Sequence record: PQ900156.1
Direction: 5' to 3' (one strand)
Origin: Escherichia phage vB_EcoP_ShWW44
DNA: 64,000 nt
Under the pieces are notes generated by a model. It had not been told where the DNA came from and searched no databases. It saw nothing but the letters and a program-made list of their open reading frames with translations. Below, in pieces: positions 8,568 through 14,655 of the stretch. A program made the position numbers and the translations under genes. Position 1 is the stretch's first letter; each line of letters opens with the position of its first letter.

Positions 8568-9401
8568 ATGCCAACTTTGAAAGTAGGTTTTAACAAAACC
8601 ACTAATGTTGCAACTGTACTGGATGCAGGTGGTTCTATTCCAGGTGGTTCCGTAGAAGTAGGTACTTTTGTACACCCGGATGCCACTTACCCTGATAGCT
8701 TAGTTATCTATCATGGAGTTCGTGATCTGTTGTATAAACGCTCTGCTAAAAACCCTGCTGAAGAAGGCTTCTGGCCTAATAACATCGTGGATATGCAGTC
8801 TATCTCTATTGATATGAAAGCTACTCCACGACTGACTGTCGCTACCAAACTGTCTCGTGTAGTCTCCGCTATCGAAGGTGAAGACATTAACTGGCATGTT
8901 GATGTAGCAGGTGGTAAAGCACCATTTACTTATAAATGGCAATTCAAAGTTGATACCGTTGGTGCAGCATTCGCTGATATTAGTTCCAGTACTAACCCAT
9001 CTGCTGCTACTGCAACGCTGACTCTTAAAGACATAACAGCTGCTTCTGCTGGTACTTATAAAGTGATTGTTACTGATGCTAATGGAACCACTGTAGAAGA
9101 TGAGTCACTGCTGGCTGTAGGCTATTACGAAGCAAGCTCCCTGGTAGCTACTCCTGCTTCACTGGCTCTGTCTGTTGCTGACGATCTTGCTGCTGGTAAA
9201 ACCGTAACCATTGCTGCTATGCCTGTTGGTTCTTCTGCTGGTACTTTGTCTATCAAGACTGCTCCAGATTCTGCTCGTGCTACGGCTACCATTGCTGGTA
9301 ACGTACTGACAGTTAAACCAGTGGCTGCTGGTGAAGCTACTTCTGTAGTAGTTACCAATGGTACGGTCGATGTAACTATCCCTGTTACTGTTGCAGAATA
9401 A
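8568..9401 (+). CDS. Ig-like domain protein (possible N4 gp17-like capsid decoration protein), 277 aa
   Basis: Ig-like segments (FTYKWQFK ... AGTYKVIVTDANGTT; BIG2-like C-terminal part); position after RNAP2 as recalled for N4 gp17; start at ATG with GAGGA SD. Confidence 0.5.
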   Translation: MPTLKVGFNKTTNVATVLDAGGSIPGGSVEVGTFVHPDATYPDSLVIYHGVRDLLYKRSAKNPAEEGFWPNNIVDMQSISIDMKATPRLTVATKLSRVVSAIEGEDINWHVDVAGGKAPFTYKWQFKVDTVGAAFADISSSTNPSAATATLTLKDITAASAGTYKVIVTDANGTTVEDESLLAVGYYEASSLVATPASLALSVADDLAAGKTVTIAAMPVGSSAGTLSIKTAPDSARATATIAGNVLTVKPVAAGEATSVVVTNGTVDVTIPVTVAE

Positions 9402-9412
9402 GGGTATCCTTT

Positions 9413-9430
9413 TTTGGGGTTATAGCCCTC
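9413..9430 (+). repeat. TTTGGGGTTATA..CCCT motif, copy 1
   Basis: Same 12-mer TTTGGGGTTATA recurs at 9792-9809. Confidence 0.4.
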
Positions 9431-9450
9431 CTTAGCGAGGGCTTTCTTGT
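9424..9450 (+). terminator. rho-independent terminator (AGCCCTC-CTTAGC-GAGGGCT + TTCTTG)
   Basis: Read directly. Confidence 0.55.
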
Positions 9451-9468
9451 ATCTATAGGAGAGTAAAA

Positions 9469-9783
9469 ATGGCGCAAAAATTGCGTGTATGGCACATTCC
9501 CCAAGTGCCAATGAAGGCATTTCAAGTAGAGACTAATAGTCTTCAGGAAGCTGTTAAGATTAAGAATGCGTTAGCAGATTATGATCTATTCCAATATGAG
9601 AACAATGTCAAAGGCGATTATGCTAATGCTAACGGTATTGAGATGTGGGATGAGACTATCTCCGATCAAGAACTAGTGGAGATGGGTTTAGAAGACCGTT
9701 GGGTAGATTGGTATATTGAAACTGAAGATGGTTTCTTTGATGACCCAGAAGAGTATCTGAATTATCTAATCAAGCAAGTATGA
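9469..9783 (+). CDS. hypothetical acidic protein (104 aa)
   Basis: ORF with AGGAGAG RBS. Confidence 0.5.
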   Translation: MAQKLRVWHIPQVPMKAFQVETNSLQEAVKIKNALADYDLFQYENNVKGDYANANGIEMWDETISDQELVEMGLEDRWVDWYIETEDGFFDDPEEYLNYLIKQV

Positions 9784-9791
9784 TTGCTTTA

Positions 9792-9809
9792 TTTGGGGTT
9801 ATAAACCCT
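9792..9809 (+). repeat. TTTGGGGTTATA..CCCT motif, copy 2
   Basis: See copy 1. Confidence 0.4.
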
Positions 9810-9829
9810 GAAATGAAACCCTCAAGTTT

Positions 9830-9860
9830 GACCTCCCTATTAAAGGGAGGTCTTTTTTTG
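9830..9860 (+). terminator. rho-independent terminator (GACCTCCCT-ATTAA-AGGGAGGTC + T7)
   Basis: 9-bp perfect stem and TTTTTTT. Confidence 0.75.
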
Positions 9861-9884
9861 ACTTAAACATTCTGGAGCCGGGAA

Positions 9885-10097
9885 ATGTATAAAGAGATTG
9901 CATTCTTCTCATTCTTACTTGGTGGTTTAATAGGTGCAGGATTTGTAGCTATTTCTAATACCTACTTTGGTTCTACTCCAAACTCTGTAACTCAAACCCT
10001 CAAGCATGAATGTGAATTGAATATCCCTCGTAATCAAAAATGTGTAATGCAGTTCGTACCGGAGAAAAATGAATATCCACAATCTACGTTTGGTTGA
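9885..10097 (+). CDS. small membrane protein (70 aa)
   Basis: ORF; hydrophobic N-terminus. Confidence 0.4.
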   Translation: MYKEIAFFSFLLGGLIGAGFVAISNTYFGSTPNSVTQTLKHECELNIPRNQKCVMQFVPEKNEYPQSTFG

Positions 10098-10329
10098 GAA
10101 ACTGTATGAAGAATACAATGACAACCGACAGCAATTAGCTAGTTTGAAGAAGTCACCACATATGGTGAAAGTATCATTCAATGGTACGGATTTAGGACCG
10201 CAAGCCCGTACAAGAATACTTCCTGAACTACTGTCCTTTTATCAAAGGAGGGTTGCTGTTTTAGAGAAACGCTTTGAACATTTAGGTGTAGATTTATCAC
10301 ATCTTCCAGATGAAGGAGAAGATGAATGA
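10069..10329 (+). CDS. hypothetical protein (86 aa)
   Basis: ORF with GGAG SD. Confidence 0.45.
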   Translation: MNIHNLRLVEKLYEEYNDNRQQLASLKKSPHMVKVSFNGTDLGPQARTRILPELLSFYQRRVAVLEKRFEHLGVDLSHLPDEGEDE

Positions 10330-10511
10330 AAGTAACCCAGTCCCAAGCAATCTTCCTTCGTATGGTTCAAGGTGGCTCTGCCACCAGCAACCGTAATAAC
10401 AAAACCGCACAGTCCCTTAAGAAGCTGGGCTTAGTTCAGTTCAATGCTGGTCTTGGGTGGTCATTAACCCTTATCGGTGTACTTAAACTCAATGAAATGA
10501 AAGGTAAATAA
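10326..10511 (+). CDS. hypothetical protein (61 aa)
   Basis: ORF; ATGA overlap. Confidence 0.4.
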   Translation: MKVTQSQAIFLRMVQGGSATSNRNNKTAQSLKKLGLVQFNAGLGWSLTLIGVLKLNEMKGK

Positions 10512-10841
10512 ATGAAAACTTTACTTAAAGGTATTGCAGTAGCTGCGCTGATAGCTTTGGTTCCAAATGCACAAGCAGTTAAACCAGAACCAATTCTGGA
10601 AGGTGCTCAGGCTTACCTGGATGACACCCGTGATGCATTCGGACAAGGGTTCTTCATGGGCAGTATGATCTCTTACATCGAGAACACAGATAACTGTGTA
10701 CCGGATGGTATGAAGTATTCAGACATTCTGCCTAAGATTGCCAAAGTAGTTATTTATGACTCTGCAATCCTCAAATTGAAGAATACATCCCAAATTGTTG
10801 TGTACTCAGTACACAAGGCATATCCCTGCACCAAATCTTAA
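10512..10841 (+). CDS. secreted/periplasmic protein with N-terminal signal peptide (109 aa)
   Basis: MKTLLKGIAVAALIALVPNAQA signal-like N-terminus. Confidence 0.5.
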   Translation: MKTLLKGIAVAALIALVPNAQAVKPEPILEGAQAYLDDTRDAFGQGFFMGSMISYIENTDNCVPDGMKYSDILPKIAKVVIYDSAILKLKNTSQIVVYSVHKAYPCTKS

Positions 10842-10875
10842 TCAGTAATTCCATTAGCTTTAGGAGAGTAAGTAA

Positions 10876-11928
10876 ATGGCAAGCATCGACTCCTTGACCG
10901 TATGTAATACACGTCAAGCTCGTAACTTTATTATCCGTGCCCTTAGAGCAGGTAACGTACCGTTCCTGACTTCATCACCAGGAATGGGCAAATCTGCAAT
11001 TATTCGTTCTGTTGCAGAAGAATTTGGTATGAAGCTGATAGACCATCGTCTGTCTACTTCTGCCCCAGAAGATTTGTCTGGATTACCATTCCGTAATGGT
11101 GACCGTGCAGAGTTTATCCCATTCGCTGACCTATTCCCCATTGAAGGGGATGAAGTACCAGAAGGTTATAATGGTTGGCTCCTGTTCCTTGATGAGTTCC
11201 CGTCCGCTCGCAAAGAAGTAATAGCTGCTGCATACAAACTGATTCTAGACCGTATGACTGGTCAGAAAAAACTTCATCCTAACGTGATGATTGTCTGTGC
11301 TGGTAACAAAGCTACTGACCGTGCCATTGTTAACCCATTAGGTACTGCAATGCAGTCTCGTGTGGTTCACTTTGAGATGGAACTTAACTTCGACATTTTT
11401 GTTGAAGACGTAATGATTCCTCAGCAATGGGATGAACGTCTGGTTGCATTCTTACATGCTAACCCTGGTTATCTGCATGACTTCGACCCAGCTCATAAGA
11501 ACAAAACGTTCTGTTGTCCTCGTACTTGGGACTTTGTTAATAAAGACCTCAAGAACTTGCCAGAAGGTGCTCTGCCTGATGAGGATTCTATCTACTATGC
11601 AGGACACGTCACTGCTGGTAAGGCTACAGAGTTTGTTCAATTCACTCAAGTATACAATCGTATGATTACGATTGAGAAGGTAGTTAAAGACCCACTGGGC
11701 TGTGCACTACCGGAGGATAACAACCTGTGCTGGGCTACTGTTAACCATCTGGCTAACAAAACTACTGAAGAGAACTTTGCTGATGTTCTTCAGTACATTG
11801 AACGCTTTAAAACGTTCACCCATAAGATTCTGTACTTCCGTACAGTAGGCAATGCATTACCAGATCTTCTGGCTACCCCTGAATGGCGTAAGGCTGCTGC
11901 TAATATCTCTCGTTACATTCACGGATAA
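10876..11928 (+). CDS. MoxR-type AAA+ ATPase (N4 gp24-like), 350 aa
   Basis: Walker A SPGMGKSAI, Walker B LLFLDEF; AGGAGAG RBS. Confidence 0.8.
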   Translation: MASIDSLTVCNTRQARNFIIRALRAGNVPFLTSSPGMGKSAIIRSVAEEFGMKLIDHRLSTSAPEDLSGLPFRNGDRAEFIPFADLFPIEGDEVPEGYNGWLLFLDEFPSARKEVIAAAYKLILDRMTGQKKLHPNVMIVCAGNKATDRAIVNPLGTAMQSRVVHFEMELNFDIFVEDVMIPQQWDERLVAFLHANPGYLHDFDPAHKNKTFCCPRTWDFVNKDLKNLPEGALPDEDSIYYAGHVTAGKATEFVQFTQVYNRMITIEKVVKDPLGCALPEDNNLCWATVNHLANKTTEENFADVLQYIERFKTFTHKILYFRTVGNALPDLLATPEWRKAAANISRYIHG

Positions 11929-11935
11929 TCACAAC

Positions 11936-13111
11936 ATGAACCAATTTCCTCAGCACACACTTAGTGATGAACAACTCATGCGTGAGTATGACCGTATTCA
12001 GGCTCAGGCGTTTCTCGGAGGCAGTGCTGCGTTCTTTGGTTCATTACTGTGTAGTCTTAAATTCTCATGGAAACGCGAGGGTTGCCCCACTGCACGTACT
12101 GATGGGATAGAACTCCATTTCAATCCAGACTTCTTTATCTGGATGTGTCCAGATGCAAGAGAAACAGTGCTTATGCATGAATTATGGCATGTGGCATATC
12201 TACATGACATTCGTCGTGGAAGACGTGACCCAGAAGTCTGGAACCAGGCATGTGACCACTTCATTAACCTTCAGTTAGAAGAAGATGGCTACAAGTTCAC
12301 TGGCATTGATAAAGGTATTTGCAAAGACCCTCAATATAAAGGATGGGTCGAAGAAGACATCTACGATGACCTGATGAAGAACCCTCAGAAAAGGCAAAAG
12401 CCGTCGGGGGGTGCTGGAGCAGGTCTTGCTGGCGACATGAAATCCCCCACTTCGGGGCAGTCCCAGGGTGCTGTCGTCAACAACGTAGTACGTGCAATGC
12501 AGAGCCAGAAGATGGCTGGTGGACAGATGCCCGGTAAGGGTGCTGGTCGTATGGAAGAGGTTATTACCCAATTCCTTAAACCAGTAGTTCCCTGGCAGGA
12601 AGTTCTGATGAACTTCTTTACCGACATTGATGACACCCATTATACGTGGGCCAGACCTAATCGTCGTTACACTGACATCTATCTACCTTCCCTGGAAGAT
12701 GATGAAGGACGTTTACGTCACTTAGCATACTTTGAGGATGTATCTGGTTCTATTAGTGGTGCTGACTCTCTGCGTTTTAACTCAGAGGTTGCCTACGTTA
12801 AGAGCCAGTTCAATCCTAAGAAGATGTCCTTAATTACCTTCGACGATATTATCCAAGAAGAGATGGACATCACTGAAGAAGATACTTTCGAAGAAATTAA
12901 GATTACAGGTCGTGGTGGTACAAACCTTGAACCAGTACGTGAATGGATTATTAAGAATAAGCCAACCGCTGCAATCATATTCTCCGATATGTATGTTCGC
13001 CCAATGGAAGAATTGCCATTTGATATCCCTATCATCTGGTGTGTTCTAAATAATCCTAATGCTACCGTACCTTTTGGGGAGGTAGTTCATATCCCTAAAG
13101 GAATGAAATAA
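11936..13111 (+). CDS. VWA-domain protein with HExxH metallopeptidase-like motif (MoxR partner), 391 aa
   Basis: HELWH motif; pairing with the AAA+ ATPase; start moved from 11852 to ATG just after the upstream stop. Confidence 0.6.
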   Translation: MNQFPQHTLSDEQLMREYDRIQAQAFLGGSAAFFGSLLCSLKFSWKREGCPTARTDGIELHFNPDFFIWMCPDARETVLMHELWHVAYLHDIRRGRRDPEVWNQACDHFINLQLEEDGYKFTGIDKGICKDPQYKGWVEEDIYDDLMKNPQKRQKPSGGAGAGLAGDMKSPTSGQSQGAVVNNVVRAMQSQKMAGGQMPGKGAGRMEEVITQFLKPVVPWQEVLMNFFTDIDDTHYTWARPNRRYTDIYLPSLEDDEGRLRHLAYFEDVSGSISGADSLRFNSEVAYVKSQFNPKKMSLITFDDIIQEEMDITEEDTFEEIKITGRGGTNLEPVREWIIKNKPTAAIIFSDMYVRPMEELPFDIPIIWCVLNNPNATVPFGEVVHIPKGMK

Positions 13112-13617
13112 TGGTTGTTAATGGTAATTCCCTGTATCGTTCATCTCAACTGCTGGATGTCCCAGACCGTAAGGTATCTAAACACGGTGTAAGCTATGGA
13201 TTGGGGGAAGCTGGTTATGATATTCGCATCAAACAAGATATTACCTTCTATCGCTTATTTGGGTTGATTCCAATGGTGAAAGTCGTTGATGGAAATCAAG
13301 TATCACGCCATCTCGGTAAGTTCACATTGGCTTCAGCAATTGAGAAGTTCAACATGTCCCCATCCTGTGTAGCCATCGTTCACGATAAGTCTACTTGGGC
13401 AAGACGTGCATTATCTGTATTCAATACCGTAATAGAACCAGGATGGAAAGGGTATTTGACTCTTGAACTGGTCTATCATGGTCGTAAGAAATTGCATATC
13501 CCGGCTGGTTCTGGGATAGCTCAAGTATTATTTCATCTGGTTCAGGAACCTGCTAATTACAATGGCAAGTACATGAACCAGGAAAACCAACCAGTAGCTG
13601 CAAGAAGCAGTAAATAA
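13111..13617 (+). CDS. dCTP deaminase-like (dUTPase superfamily) protein, 168 aa
   Basis: IEPGWKGYLTLELVYHG and STWARRAL resemble E. coli Dcd motifs as recalled. Confidence 0.6.
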   Translation: MVVNGNSLYRSSQLLDVPDRKVSKHGVSYGLGEAGYDIRIKQDITFYRLFGLIPMVKVVDGNQVSRHLGKFTLASAIEKFNMSPSCVAIVHDKSTWARRALSVFNTVIEPGWKGYLTLELVYHGRKKLHIPAGSGIAQVLFHLVQEPANYNGKYMNQENQPVAARSSK

Positions 13618-13626
13618 GGAAAACTC

Positions 13627-13836
13627 ATGTCAGTATTTCAAGTAACTAATGCAACCTCAAATGTACGTGTAACCATTAATGCTGCAAACGTGATTGCAGT
13701 GGAACTGATTCCACTGTCTGATTGTGCACGTATCACATTCGTAAATGATGGTGCTATGGAAACCAAAGAAACCTATCGTTCTGTGCGTAATTATCTGAAG
13801 AAAGCTCTTGCTCCAGCAAGTAAAGATGCTGAGTAA
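13627..13836 (+). CDS. hypothetical protein (69 aa)
   Basis: ORF with AGGAAAA RBS. Confidence 0.45.
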   Translation: MSVFQVTNATSNVRVTINAANVIAVELIPLSDCARITFVNDGAMETKETYRSVRNYLKKALAPASKDAE

Positions 13837-13849
13837 GTAGCTGCCTAGA

Positions 13850-13876
13850 TAGCCCAACTATGTTGGGCTATTTGCG
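13850..13876 (+). terminator. rho-independent terminator (TAGCCCAAC-TATG-TTGGGCTA + TTTGCG)
   Basis: Read directly. Confidence 0.55.
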
Positions 13877-13909
13877 AAGAAACTAACTCAACCCCACATA
13901 GGAACCATC

Positions 13910-14161
13910 ATGGAATCTTTAGCAGCAATCCTTGTACTGTTGTTTGTATTAGCCGTATACCTTATCCCTACTATCATTGCTTTTGCACGAGGTCATGCCT
14001 CTAAGTGGGGTATTGGTGTGCTTAATATCGTATTAGGCTGGTCACTGGTATTTTGGGTAGTAGCACTTATTTGGGCACTGTCTAATAAAGGAACTACAAT
14101 CGTTAACGTTGGCAGTGGTAACCAGTACAACGTGTCTCAAACGAGCAGCAAAGCAGAGTAA
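13910..14161 (+). CDS. superinfection-immunity-like (Imm family) inner-membrane protein, 83 aa
   Basis: Two TM helices and motif IIAFARGH ... LNIVLGWSLVFWVVALIWA resembling the T4 Imm family pattern as recalled. Confidence 0.55.
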   Translation: MESLAAILVLLFVLAVYLIPTIIAFARGHASKWGIGVLNIVLGWSLVFWVVALIWALSNKGTTIVNVGSGNQYNVSQTSSKAE

Positions 14162-14233
14162 CTAATCTAAGCATCATTAATAGGGTGCTTGTGGAAGTTA
14201 CTTCCAGCTCATTGCTTATCCATCTCCTAACCC

Positions 14234-14260
14234 AAGCCCACCTAACCCGTGGGCTTTTTT
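14234..14260 (+). terminator. rho-independent terminator (AAGCCCAC-loop-GTGGGCTT + T6)
   Basis: Read directly. Confidence 0.65.
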
Positions 14261-14655
14261 AATTACAGGTACTTCTTATGACAAACAGACGAATGGTAAG
14301 TCTATCTTGTATGGGCTGGACTTAAGTAAGCTAGAACAAACAGCAATGCTTACTTTAGGTAAAACTATCCATGACCAAGTGGAGAATGAAAATGTATTAG
14401 ATCTTTACACAACAATGCAGGTTCTTGTTCAAAAAGATGGACTACTAGCAGACCTTTTCCTTCATACATTCCCCCAGAACCGCATCTGAAATCTAAGGTA
14501 GACCGTATCATAGATAAGTTCTGGCTTAGCCCGTGTTATGACGAAATGCATCTTTACTTGGCTCAAATACAAAAGAATCCTTATACCAAAGATGTATTTA
14601 AGGGTAAGAGTACTACTCACCACTACCCCTGGTATAGAAGAGGTAGCAAATACTA

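What the first reader, a model, noticed from the sequence alone, without database searches (positions are those of the whole stretch)
10876..13111. MoxR-type AAA+ ATPase with VWA/HExxH partner
Walker A/B AAA+ protein followed by a protein carrying an HELWH zinc-peptidase-like motif, a pairing typical of cellular MoxR-VWA chaperone systems. Its role in phage infection is not established to my knowledge.
Basis: partly seen in the sequence, partly recalled or inferred. Interest (0 to 1): 0.45.

Follow-up and report, generated by a model that had tools for sequence, protein, structure and literature searches.

The report
N4-type MoxR ATPase–VWA protease pair
These two adjacent genes are the counterparts of phage N4 genes 24 and 25, an ATP-driven motor protein and a partner that combines a zinc-protease-like domain with a protein-gripping domain; the pair is real and highly conserved but already catalogued, and nobody yet knows what it acts on.

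Summary
The window is a G7C-like (Gamaleyavirus) N4-family phage. ORF1 (10876-11928) is a divergent MoxR/dynein-midasin-clade AAA+ ATPase. ORF2 (true start 11936, end 13111) is a DUF2201_N HExxH domain, a flexible linker and a VWA domain with a complete MIDAS site. They are orthologues of N4 gp24 and gp25 (62% and 61% identity). The literature lists these as core, middle-phase genes of N4-like phages with unknown function. The same architecture was described in jumbo phages in 2021.

All catalytic residues are conserved in every full-length homologue checked. The ATPase gene lies upstream on the same strand in 71 of 80 viral loci. Homologous ATPase plus DUF2201 modules also occur on conjugative and non-conjugative bacterial plasmids, where PGAP names the ATPase 'MoxR family'.

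Most likely mechanism, inferred and not shown: the VWA adaptor grips a target through MIDAS, the ATPase ring pulls on the adaptor, and the zincin domain cuts. The plasmid homologues and the position among middle genes argue for a non-virion target. Virion maturation, the published proposal, remains a live rival.

Verdict: correct, already known, moderate-to-low interest.

The parts
10876..11928 (+). ORF1, 350 aa: divergent MoxR/dynein-midasin-clade AAA+ ATPase, orthologue of N4 gp24
10978..10995 (+). Walker A / P-loop PGMGKS (G38 K39 S40)
   Evidence: Coordinates. Invariant in 40/40 and in all 85 aligned homologues, including those of plasmids and jumbo phages.
11041..11139 (+). Segment between beta2 and beta3 (residues 56-88), interpreted as the helix-2 insert or pore loop. 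It is dense in invariant residues: D56 H57 R58 S62 P64 D66 G69 P71 A78 F80 F83 F87 P88.
   Evidence: Invariant columns. The model shows a beta-hairpin at 72-78, but pLDDT is below 50 for 64-72. In NorQ the H2 insert binds the VWA 'finger'. Assigning that role here is an inference.
11179..11196 (+). Walker B LLFLDE (D106 E107)
   Evidence: In relative U1G a roughly 880-nt insertion carrying an HNH homing endonuclease sits exactly before the D106 codon.
11251..11307 (+). Pre-sensor-1 beta-hairpin (about residues 126-136) followed by strand beta4 ending in sensor-1 N144
   Evidence: Secondary structure of the model: strands at 127-128 and 131-133 precede strand 137-144. N144 is invariant.
11353..11364 (+). 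Arginine finger R162, immediately N-terminal to strand beta5
   Evidence: R162 is invariant in 85/85. Strand 163-168 follows it. The position matches the MoxR arginine finger as described in PMC7159879.
11386..11925 (+). All-helical C-terminal half (residues 171-350): lid plus extension, with the invariant CCPRTW motif (R216, candidate sensor-2)
   Evidence: The PR(T/S)W motif also aligns in the pSYSA MoxR-family ATPase. The sensor-2 role is inferred.
11936..13111 (+). ORF2, 391 aa: zincin-like domain, flexible linker and VWA domain; orthologue of N4 gp25
   Evidence: Pfam PF13203 (E=4e-55) and PF09967 (E=1e-34). 61% identity to N4 gp25, E=4e-177. Start codon supported by homologue lengths.
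11984..12694 (+). DUF2201_N putative metallopeptidase domain (Pfam envelope, residues 17-253; the structured core is about residues 11-148)
   Evidence: The model shows a three-stranded sheet (42-62), then the active-site helix 72-87 and helix 99-116, which is a zincin-like order. No PDB relative was found by sequence.
12170..12205 (+). HExxH motif (LMHELWHVAYLH; H81 E82 H85)
   Evidence: Invariant in 40/40 and in 96-97 of 98 homologues, the rest being gaps.
12239..12268 (+). Helix WNQACDHFIN carrying invariant D107, the candidate third zinc ligand, 22 residues after H85
   Evidence: The ligand role is inferred from gluzincin-like spacing.
12383..12715 (+). Gly/Gln-rich low-confidence linker (residues 150-260), ending in the conserved W-x-R-P-N-R-R-Y motif (12647-12688)
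   Evidence: pLDDT 36-57 across much of 160-256. W238 R243 R244 Y249 P251 are invariant. Composition.
12722..13093 (+). VWA domain with a complete MIDAS site: D268-x-S270-x-S272 (12731-12754), T329 (12908-12925), D351 (12971-12991)
13111..13617 (+). Context: dCTP deaminase gene, whose start overlaps the ORF2 stop (TAATG)
   Evidence: The gene order is the same in N4 (gp24-gp25-gp26).
9830..9852 (+). Context: terminator-like hairpin upstream; putative 5' boundary of the transcription unit that holds ORF1 and ORF2
   Evidence: Consensus scan only. The operon boundary is inferred.
14234..14256 (+). Context: terminator-like hairpin downstream; putative 3' boundary of the same unit
   Evidence: Consensus scan only. 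Inferred.

Best explanation
ORF1 and ORF2 are the N4 gp24/gp25 orthologues of a G7C-like N4-family phage. I propose they form a two-component, ATP-driven remodelling and cleavage machine.

Proposed mechanism:
- The MoxR-like ATPase (ORF1) assembles into a ring.
- The partner (ORF2) docks on the ring through its VWA and linker region, as the NorD and CbbO VWA proteins dock on NorQ and CbbQ ('finger in pore').
- The MIDAS site of ORF2 grips an acidic residue of a target protein.
- ATP hydrolysis twists or stretches the long linker between the VWA domain and the N-terminal zincin domain.
- The HExxH...D site then cuts the target, or the adaptor itself.

The genes lie in the early/middle block and are probably co-transcribed with nucleotide-metabolism genes. 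Clearly homologous modules with intact catalytic residues exist on plasmids that make no virions. I therefore favour a cytoplasmic, non-virion target: a conserved host protein, or a protein complex tied to establishing or replicating incoming mobile DNA.

Shown here: identity, domain composition, conservation, linkage and distribution. Inferred: complex formation, protease activity, and above all the target.
For: Orthology and synteny with N4 gp24/gp25.

MoxR/dynein-midasin structural neighbours, and transitive homology to PGAP-named MoxR family ATPases that pass the Pfam AAA_5 cutoff.

VWA fold.

Conservation across phages, jumbo phages and plasmids:
- Walker A and B, sensor-1 and the Arg finger are invariant in 85/85.
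- HExxH, D107 and all five MIDAS residues are invariant in 96-98 of 98.

Linkage: an ORF1 homologue lies upstream on the same strand in 71 of 80 IMG/VR loci, and 8 of the other 9 are truncated.

Homologous modules on plasmids:
- Beside T4SS genes, a toprim/DUF3991 gene, or ssb and parB-N genes on Burkholderia, Rhodovastum and Meiothermus plasmids.
- On non-conjugative plasmids such as Synechocystis pSYSA.

Position in the plus-strand early/middle block, with the stop overlapping the dCTP deaminase start. N4 gp24 and gp25 are reported as middle transcripts.

Mechanistic framework for MoxR/VWA pairs from the NorQD cryo-EM work and the Aravind-lab analyses.

Homing-endonuclease insertions in relatives sit in the ATPase's invariant motifs, which fits a functionally constrained gene.
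Against: - There are no experimental data for any member. I found no study of gp24 or gp25 function.
- ORF1 itself is below the AAA_5 cutoff.
- The model shows no obvious NorD-like finger.
- Strict core-gene status in phages of very different hosts argues against a variable anti-defence role. It is equally compatible with a phage-encoded target.
- In jumbo phage PBECO4 the pair sits next to virion structural genes.
- In the window the Hoc-like decoration gene is only 1.5 kb upstream.
- In roseophages a second structural module lies near the gp24/25 homologues.
- The published proposal is virion assembly.
Confidence: 0.45

Rival explanations
1. Virion-morphogenesis chaperone-protease. The MoxR/VWA pair assists assembly of a large virion component, and the zincin domain trims structural proteins. 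This was proposed for the same architecture in group 2.2 jumbo phages, and resembles the MoxR/VWA pair p618/p892 of Acidianus two-tailed virus.
For: - The published proposal and the ATV precedent.
- In PBECO4 the pair is immediately downstream of virion structural genes.
- A Hoc-like decoration gene lies 1.5 kb upstream in the window and in N4.
- A second structural module lies near the gp24/25 homologues in roseophages.
- Core-gene status fits a phage-intrinsic target.
Against: - Homologous modules with all catalytic residues intact occur on plasmids that make no virions, including non-conjugative ones.
- The genes lie in the middle (replication and nucleotide-metabolism) block, not the late structural block on the other strand.
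- The ORF2 stop overlaps the dCTP deaminase start.
Confidence: 0.25
2. Metallochaperone or enzyme activase like NorQD, CbbQO, CoxDE or the chelatases. The pair remodels a phage or host enzyme, for example in nucleotide metabolism or replication, to insert a metal or release an inhibitor. Under this view the HExxH site is a metal-handling site rather than a protease.
For: - All characterised bacterial MoxR/VWA pairs of this size act this way.
- 5 of 40 ORF2 relatives hit VWA_CoxE.
- The genes are co-located with dCTP deaminase and ThyX in N4-like phages, and with ThyA in PBECO4.
Against: - The plasmid modules are not next to such enzymes.
- HExxH with an invariant Glu plus a downstream Asp is a catalytic zincin signature, not a known metallochaperone motif.
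- No conserved candidate client is shared by all elements.
Confidence: 0.12
3. Dedicated counter-defence protease. The pair recognises and destroys a host immune protein, as an accessory anti-defence system.
For: - It is present on several kinds of invading mobile elements.
- On two plasmids it lies beside genes typical of conjugative establishment regions: a toprim/DUF3991 gene (Rhodovastum) and ssb and parB-N (Meiothermus).
- ArdC is a precedent for a plasmid zincin that overcomes restriction (title and abstract of PMC7213743, listed).
Against: - Anti-defence genes are usually patchy and fast-evolving. This pair is a strict core gene of all N4-like phages across distant hosts.
- There are no PADLOC hits.
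- pSYSA and the Streptomyces plasmids carry the pair without conjugation genes nearby.
Confidence: 0.1
4. ORF2 is an HNH endonuclease, as PHROG 1314 and many RefSeq records name it.
For: Only the database label.
Against: - No HNH-family hit in any of 40 members, even at E<=1. All 40 match DUF2201_N plus DUF2201.
- The fold is VWA.
- The label probably spread from genuine HNH homing endonucleases inserted in or beside these genes in some relatives.
Confidence: 0.01

Closest known systems
Escherichia phage N4 gp24 (AAA+ ATPase) and gp25 (vWFA-domain protein), core middle genes of N4-like phages (Schitoviridae)
   Same: Direct orthologues: 62% and 61% identity over the full length. The gene order is the same: Hoc-like, sie, small ORFs, ATPase, VWA, dCTP deaminase, thymidylate synthase. 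They are listed as core genes of unknown function.
   Different: Nothing of substance. The window phage belongs to Gamaleyavirus rather than Enquatrovirus. N4 has a 167-nt gap between the two genes, against 7 nt here.
MoxR AAA+ / metallopeptidase-vWA pair of group 2.2 jumbo phages (Iyer et al. 2021, PMC7824862)
   Same: Same architecture: a MoxR-like ATPase plus a vWA protein with an N-terminal metallopeptidase domain. Jumbo-phage homologues of both window proteins were found, adjacent in PBECO4.
   Different: That paper proposes virion assembly and processing, and as quoted it does not mention N4-like phages or plasmids. I did not check whether its example proteins are the same clade as PBECO4's.
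NorQ/NorD and CbbQ/CbbO (bacterial MoxR/VWA remodellers)
   Different: NorD and CbbO have no HExxH domain, and those systems insert a metal or release an inhibitor rather than cleave. ORF1 has an extra helical C-terminal half of about 180 residues. No finger is evident in the ORF2 model.
Plasmid and bacterial 'MoxR family ATPase' plus 'VWA-like domain-containing protein' (DUF2201) modules
   Same: Both partners are homologous. The A1 and A2 profiles hit the Burkholderia and Rhodovastum plasmid proteins at E=1e-40 to 1e-59. ORF1 matches the pSYSA and Streptomyces ATPases by BLASTP at 1e-30 and 2e-16. Catalytic residues are identical except that the Burkholderia plasmid ATPase has Asp at the Walker B Glu position.
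   Different: Burkholderiales and Rhodovastum plasmids carry a third gene of about 300 aa between the two. It has no counterpart in the window. The order is reversed in Fulvitalea. None of these modules has a known function.
Acidianus two-tailed virus p618 (MoxR) / p892 (VWA)
   Same: A viral MoxR/VWA pair, reported to be needed for tail development (as cited).
   Different: It has no peptidase domain and belongs to an archaeal virus. I made no sequence comparison here.
Rea1/midasin and dynein AAA modules
   Different: Those are giant single-chain eukaryotic hexa-AAA proteins. ORF1 is a 350-aa single module.
FtsH (AAA+ fused to an M41 HExxH protease): functional analogy only
   Same: It combines an AAA+ motor with an HExxH zincin.
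   Different: It belongs to a different AAA+ clade, is a single polypeptide, is membrane-anchored and has no VWA domain. No homology is claimed.

Membership tests
MoxR-type AAA+ ATPases (helix-2-insert clade; Pfam AAA_5 / AAA_3) | Intact Walker A, Walker B and sensor-1, and an arginine finger just before strand beta5 | tested here: met
   GKS38-40, DE106-107, N144 and R162 are invariant in 40/40 and 85/85. R162 precedes strand 163-168.
MoxR-type AAA+ ATPases (helix-2-insert clade; Pfam AAA_5 / AAA_3) | Helix-2 insert and pre-sensor-1 beta-hairpin | tested here: met
   Seen on the AlphaFold model only: a hairpin at 72-78 between beta2 and beta3, and strands at 127-133 before beta4. The H2 region has low pLDDT (64-72 below 50) but is dense in invariant residues.
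MoxR-type AAA+ ATPases (helix-2-insert clade; Pfam AAA_5 / AAA_3) | Scores above the curated cutoff of a MoxR-lineage profile (AAA_5 22 bits, AAA_3 27 bits) | tested here: inconclusive
   The window protein scores AAA_5 14.6 bits and bpMoxR 13.1 bits, both below cutoff. 37 of 40 relatives hit AAA_5 at E<=1. BLASTP-linked plasmid homologues pass (25.3 and 36.8 bits; AAA_3 28.6).
MoxR-type AAA+ ATPases (helix-2-insert clade; Pfam AAA_5 / AAA_3) | Closest solved structures belong to the MoxR/dynein/midasin clade | tested here: met
MoxR-type AAA+ ATPases (helix-2-insert clade; Pfam AAA_5 / AAA_3) | Genomic pairing with a VWA-domain protein | tested here: met
   71 of 80 viral loci, same strand, ATPase upstream. 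The pairing also holds on plasmids.
MoxR-type AAA+ ATPases (helix-2-insert clade; Pfam AAA_5 / AAA_3) | Hexameric ring with ATPase activity stimulated by the VWA partner | not testable with these tools
   Needs biochemistry or multimer modelling.
DUF2201_N + DUF2201 proteins ('VWA-like domain-containing protein'; putative metallopeptidase-VWA) | Both Pfam domains above their gathering thresholds, in this order | tested here: met
   PF13203 187.7 bits (cutoff 23.2) and PF09967 119.5 bits (cutoff 26.4). All 40 relatives show the same.
DUF2201_N + DUF2201 proteins ('VWA-like domain-containing protein'; putative metallopeptidase-VWA) | HExxH plus a downstream acidic ligand | tested here: met
   H81, E82, H85 and D107 are present in 96-97 of 98 homologues, the rest being gaps.
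DUF2201_N + DUF2201 proteins ('VWA-like domain-containing protein'; putative metallopeptidase-VWA) | Zincin fold of the N-terminal domain | tested here: inconclusive
   The secondary-structure order (sheet, HExxH helix, ligand helix) fits. No structural or sequence match to a solved zincin was obtained. A domain-only fold search was not possible.
DUF2201_N + DUF2201 proteins ('VWA-like domain-containing protein'; putative metallopeptidase-VWA) | VWA fold with a complete MIDAS site (DxSxS, T, D) | tested here: met
DUF2201_N + DUF2201 proteins ('VWA-like domain-containing protein'; putative metallopeptidase-VWA) | Peptidase activity | not testable with these tools
   To my knowledge no member has been assayed, and none was found in the literature searches.
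N4 gp24/gp25 core gene pair of Schitoviridae | Full-length orthology to N4 gp24 and gp25 | tested here: met
   62% identity (E=1e-173) and 61% identity (E=4e-177).
N4 gp24/gp25 core gene pair of Schitoviridae | Conserved position in the early/middle block upstream of dCTP deaminase | tested here: met
   Window order compared with N4 order.
N4 gp24/gp25 core gene pair of Schitoviridae | Middle-phase transcription by RNAPII | not tested
   Reported for N4. Only consensus terminator scans were run here.
HNH endonuclease (database label of ORF2 homologues) | HNH/His-Me finger domain | tested here: not met
   No HNH family hit in 40 of 40 members at E<=1. The fold is VWA.
Known anti-phage defence system components (PADLOC) | Match to a defence-system profile | tested here: not met
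   No hits for either protein.

The most novel reading that the evidence does not exclude
The MoxR-like ATPase plus zincin-VWA module is a pan-mobile-element 'establishment protease'. It would be a two-component ATP-dependent protease, shared by virulent phages (N4-like, rV5-like, several jumbo lineages) and plasmids, that captures a conserved host protein through MIDAS and cleaves it so that the incoming DNA can replicate. That would make it a new class of ATP-dependent protease and would give the N4 core genes 24 and 25 a function.
Probability: 0.15. Interest if true: 0.7.

Novelty: already known. Interest (0 to 1): 0.3.

Why it matters
gp24 and gp25 are two of the roughly fourteen genes shared by all N4-like phages, a family used in phage therapy and as a model for transcription. 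They are among the few of those core genes still without a function. The DUF2201 partner family is large: about 21,500 clusters at 50% identity. The module is also present on plasmids.

A target would therefore explain a widespread mobile-element function. It might also define a new kind of ATP-dependent protease.

For this window, though, the finding only re-identifies a catalogued gene pair. The practical outputs are:
- a corrected annotation (not an HNH endonuclease);
- a precise list of catalytic residues to mutate;
- the argument from plasmid homologues that the published virion-assembly idea should not be taken for granted.

Tried and rejected
- NCBIfam and PADLOC scans of both proteins gave no hits.
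- PDB sequence and profile searches for ORF2 gave nothing usable. For ORF1 they gave only midasin and PspF at marginal E-values.
- The genome-contig scan reached only close, N4-like relatives, not distant cellular ones. Cellular context was obtained from the plasmid collection instead.
- I tested whether the roughly 300-aa middle gene of the plasmid modules has a counterpart in the window or in viral loci. phmmer found nothing, and hhalign gave probability 0.4% against the recurrent roughly 310-aa viral intervening gene. The intervening genes are variable inserts, and the idea of a conserved third component was dropped.
- The HNH endonuclease label was rejected.
- Literature searches for a functional study found none: N4 gp24/gp25, DUF2201, vWA-MoxR, Schitoviridae plus MoxR/VWA, and the CRISPRi-ART paper. 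A search of the CRISPRi-ART paper's text found no mention of N4, gp24, MoxR or VWA.
- An Rfam scan of 9400-14400 found no structured RNA.
- The sigma-70 promoter scan was below the shuffled expectation and is uninformative, as expected for RNAPII-transcribed middle genes.
Full report
**What the window is.** The 2,236-base finding matches 58 phage genomes by megablast. The best is Escherichia phage St11Ph5, at identical coordinates and 94.6% identity. Almost all are Gamaleyavirus (G7C-like) members of the N4-like family Schitoviridae. The ORF map fits:
- a plus-strand early/middle block with RNAPII, rIIA/B, DNA polymerase and related genes;
- a minus-strand block that begins with a 3,601-aa virion RNA polymerase.

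**Observation check.** ORF1 (10876-11928, 350 aa) has a good ribosome-binding site. It carries Walker A PGMGKS and Walker B LLFLDE. ORF2 is listed mechanically from 11852, but it starts at the ATG at 11936, 7 nt after the ORF1 stop. Homologues of 390-391 aa cover 100% of that product. It ends at 13111, and its stop overlaps the dCTP deaminase start. Pfam gives AAA for ORF1 (E=3e-5). For ORF2 it gives DUF2201_N 'putative metallopeptidase domain' (E=4e-55) plus DUF2201 'VWA-like domain' (E=1e-34). The HELWH motif is residues 81-85.

**Identity.** Direct comparison with phage N4 shows that ORF1 is the orthologue of gp24 (62% identity, E=1e-173) and ORF2 of gp25 (61%, E=4e-177). The gene order is the same: Hoc-like decoration protein, superinfection exclusion, small ORFs, ATPase, VWA protein, dCTP deaminase, thymidylate synthase. 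The literature lists gp24 ('AAA+ ATPase' or 'unknown') and gp25 ('vWFA domain') among the core genes of all N4-like phages. Their function is given as unknown, and they are said to be middle transcripts in N4. The N4 record already notes similarity to two adjacent Streptomyces coelicolor proteins.

**The ATPase.** In a 40-sequence alignment (50-87% identity to the window protein), the following are invariant: Walker A G38-K39-S40, Walker B D106-E107, N144, R162 and R216. They remain invariant in all 85 aligned homologues from viral contigs, jumbo phages and plasmids.

The AlphaFold model (pLDDT 86) shows the core AAA+ sheet and three further features:
- a hairpin between beta2 and beta3, in a low-confidence but highly conserved stretch (residues 56-88);
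- a hairpin before the sensor-1 strand;
- an all-helical C-terminal half.

**The partner.** HExxH (H81, E82, H85), D107 and the full MIDAS set (D268, S270, S272, T329, D351) are invariant in 40/40. They are present in 96-98 of 98 homologues, the rest being alignment gaps.

The model (pLDDT 78) has these parts:
- a structured N-terminal domain, in which a small sheet precedes the HExxH helix and a second helix carries D107 22 residues later, a gluzincin-like layout;
- a Gly/Gln-rich low-confidence linker of about 100 residues, ending in an invariant W-x-R-P-N-R-R-Y motif;
- a compact VWA domain.

**Linkage and distribution.** Of 80 IMG/VR loci that encode an ORF2 relative (29-97% identity), 71 have an ORF1 relative upstream on the same strand. 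Thirty are adjacent and 35 lie within 150-1500 nt. Eight of the nine exceptions have under 1.3 kb of upstream sequence. The genes that sometimes sit between the two are variable and unrelated to each other.

tblastn finds ORF2 relatives in 767 phage records, and not only in Schitoviridae. They also occur in rV5-like phages, Asteriusvirus jumbo phages (PBECO4), Arenbergviridae, Bacillus phage G and others. An ORF1 relative is adjacent or nearby in three of the four I inspected. A profile search of 1.84 billion cluster representatives finds 21,501 relatives at E<=0.001.

**Plasmids.** 119 plasmid records carry an ORF2 relative.
- On Burkholderia, Cupriavidus, Variovorax and Rhodovastum plasmids the module is ATPase, an unknown protein of about 300 aa, then DUF2201. 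It lies beside T4SS genes or a toprim/DUF3991 gene.
- On a Meiothermus plasmid the DUF2201 gene sits between ssb and a ParB-N gene.
- On Synechocystis pSYSA and a Streptomyces plasmid a 'MoxR family ATPase' directly precedes it.
- In Fulvitalea the order is reversed.

Both plasmid partners are clear homologues of the window proteins and keep the catalytic residues, apart from one Walker B Glu-to-Asp change in the Burkholderia ATPase.

**What is known about such systems.** MoxR ATPases generally work with VWA co-factors. The VWA MIDAS site captures a peptide or acidic residue of a client, and the ring transmits force to it. The 2026 NorQD structures show a VWA 'finger' in the pore lined by the helix-2 insert. 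[quoted passage not shown]

Iyer et al. (2021) described a MoxR plus vWA pair with an N-terminal metallopeptidase in group 2.2 jumbo phages. They proposed virion assembly and processing, citing the Acidianus two-tailed virus pair. In phage 0305phi8-36 a deletion spanning a MoxR/vWA pair and other genes was viable but reduced growth. I found no functional work on N4 gp24 or gp25.

**Mechanism proposed.** The pair most likely forms an ATP-driven remodelling and cleavage machine, with MIDAS-mediated capture, ring-driven pulling on the adaptor's linker, and cleavage at the zincin site. Everything beyond domain identity, conservation and linkage is inference.

On the target, three points weigh against a purely virion-directed role:
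- plasmid homologues with intact active sites, on elements that make no virions;
- the position in the middle block;
- the stop of ORF2 overlapping the start of dCTP deaminase.

I therefore favour a cytoplasmic, non-virion target (confidence 0.45 for the whole statement). I keep virion maturation at 0.25, a NorQD-like activase at 0.12 and a dedicated anti-defence protease at 0.10. Strict core-gene status across hosts argues against a typical anti-defence gene.

**Novelty and score.** The feature is real and correctly read, but it is a catalogued core gene pair in a phage closely related to many sequenced ones, and the architecture has been described in phages. I rate it 'already known', interest 0.3. 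The open question of what gp24 and gp25 do is genuine and testable.

Noticed in passing
window 11072-11086 and 11190/11191 (compared with L102 = Shigella phage pSb-1 and L103 = Escherichia phage U1G): In close relatives the ATPase gene is split by insertions of about 880 nt that carry an HNH homing endonuclease (annotated 'Phage intron' in U1G). In pSb-1 the insertion falls at codons 66-70, inside the invariant D66..G69 motif. In U1G it falls exactly before the Walker B D106 codon. The pSb-1 insertion has a sub-threshold Rfam group I intron match (26.8 bits, cutoff 50, E=0.0014); U1G has none. The window copy is uninterrupted. The split ORFs explain the fragment families phrog_16335 and phrog_21479 and the 224-268-aa hits.
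   Followed up: partly
window 11936-13111, and RefSeq records of relatives including N4 gp25: PHROG 1314 and many RefSeq phage records name this protein 'HNH endonuclease', and some rV5-like records name it 'anti-sigma factor'. No HNH domain is present in any of 40 relatives; it is a DUF2201_N plus VWA protein. This is a propagated mis-annotation.
   Followed up: yes
L003 (Mesorhizobium yinganensis CN2-181, 727-kb contig, 435974-447110) and L104 (Mesorhizobium MAG, 153-kb contig): An N4-like middle-gene block lies directly beside bacterial housekeeping-type genes. The block runs ATPase, DUF2201 and a dCTP or dCMP deaminase in both loci, and in L104 continues with ThyX, a helicase and PolA. The flanking genes are chorismate synthase 1.6 kb upstream in L003, and LysR, NmrA, glycosyltransferase and DUF982 genes in L104. 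This suggests an integrated N4-like element or remnant in rhizobia, which would be unusual for a family regarded as strictly lytic; the MAG contig could instead be an assembly chimera.
   Followed up: partly
L014 (Acinetobacter baumannii pRBH2-3, NZ_CP110465.1, 75,126 bp circular): A record filed as a non-mobilizable plasmid carries an N4-type RNA polymerase gene, the ATPase and the DUF2201 gene, and has the size of an N4-like genome. It is probably a phage genome, or a carrier-state or pseudolysogenic form, deposited as a plasmid.
   Followed up: no
L013 6013-6942, L015 6066-6965, L099 5106-5993, L100 5058-5984: Burkholderiales and Rhodovastum plasmids have a conserved unknown gene of about 300 aa, with no Pfam match, between the ATPase and the DUF2201 gene. 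This makes a three-gene module. The gene has no counterpart in the window or in the viral loci.
   Followed up: partly
window 9830-9852 and 14234-14256 (+): Two strong terminator-like hairpins bracket a run of plus-strand genes: four small ORFs, the ATPase, the VWA protein, dCTP deaminase and two small ORFs. No comparably strong terminator lies between them, which suggests one transcription unit.
   Followed up: no
window 10512-10841 (+): The ORF just upstream of the ATPase (109 aa) begins with a signal-peptide-like sequence (MKTLLKGIAVAALIALVPNAQA). In N4 a 'lipoprotein' (gp20) and a 'membrane protein' (gp19) occupy the same region. These may be envelope-directed early/middle products.
   Followed up: no
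L016 (Synechocystis sp. PCC 6803 plasmid pSYSA, 26352-28630): The MoxR plus DUF2201 pair on pSYSA is surrounded by toxin-antitoxin genes (GNAT/DUF1778, HepT, PIN-like) and a DUF262 protein. This is a defence-island-like neighbourhood, so cellular versions may take part in conflict systems.
   Followed up: no
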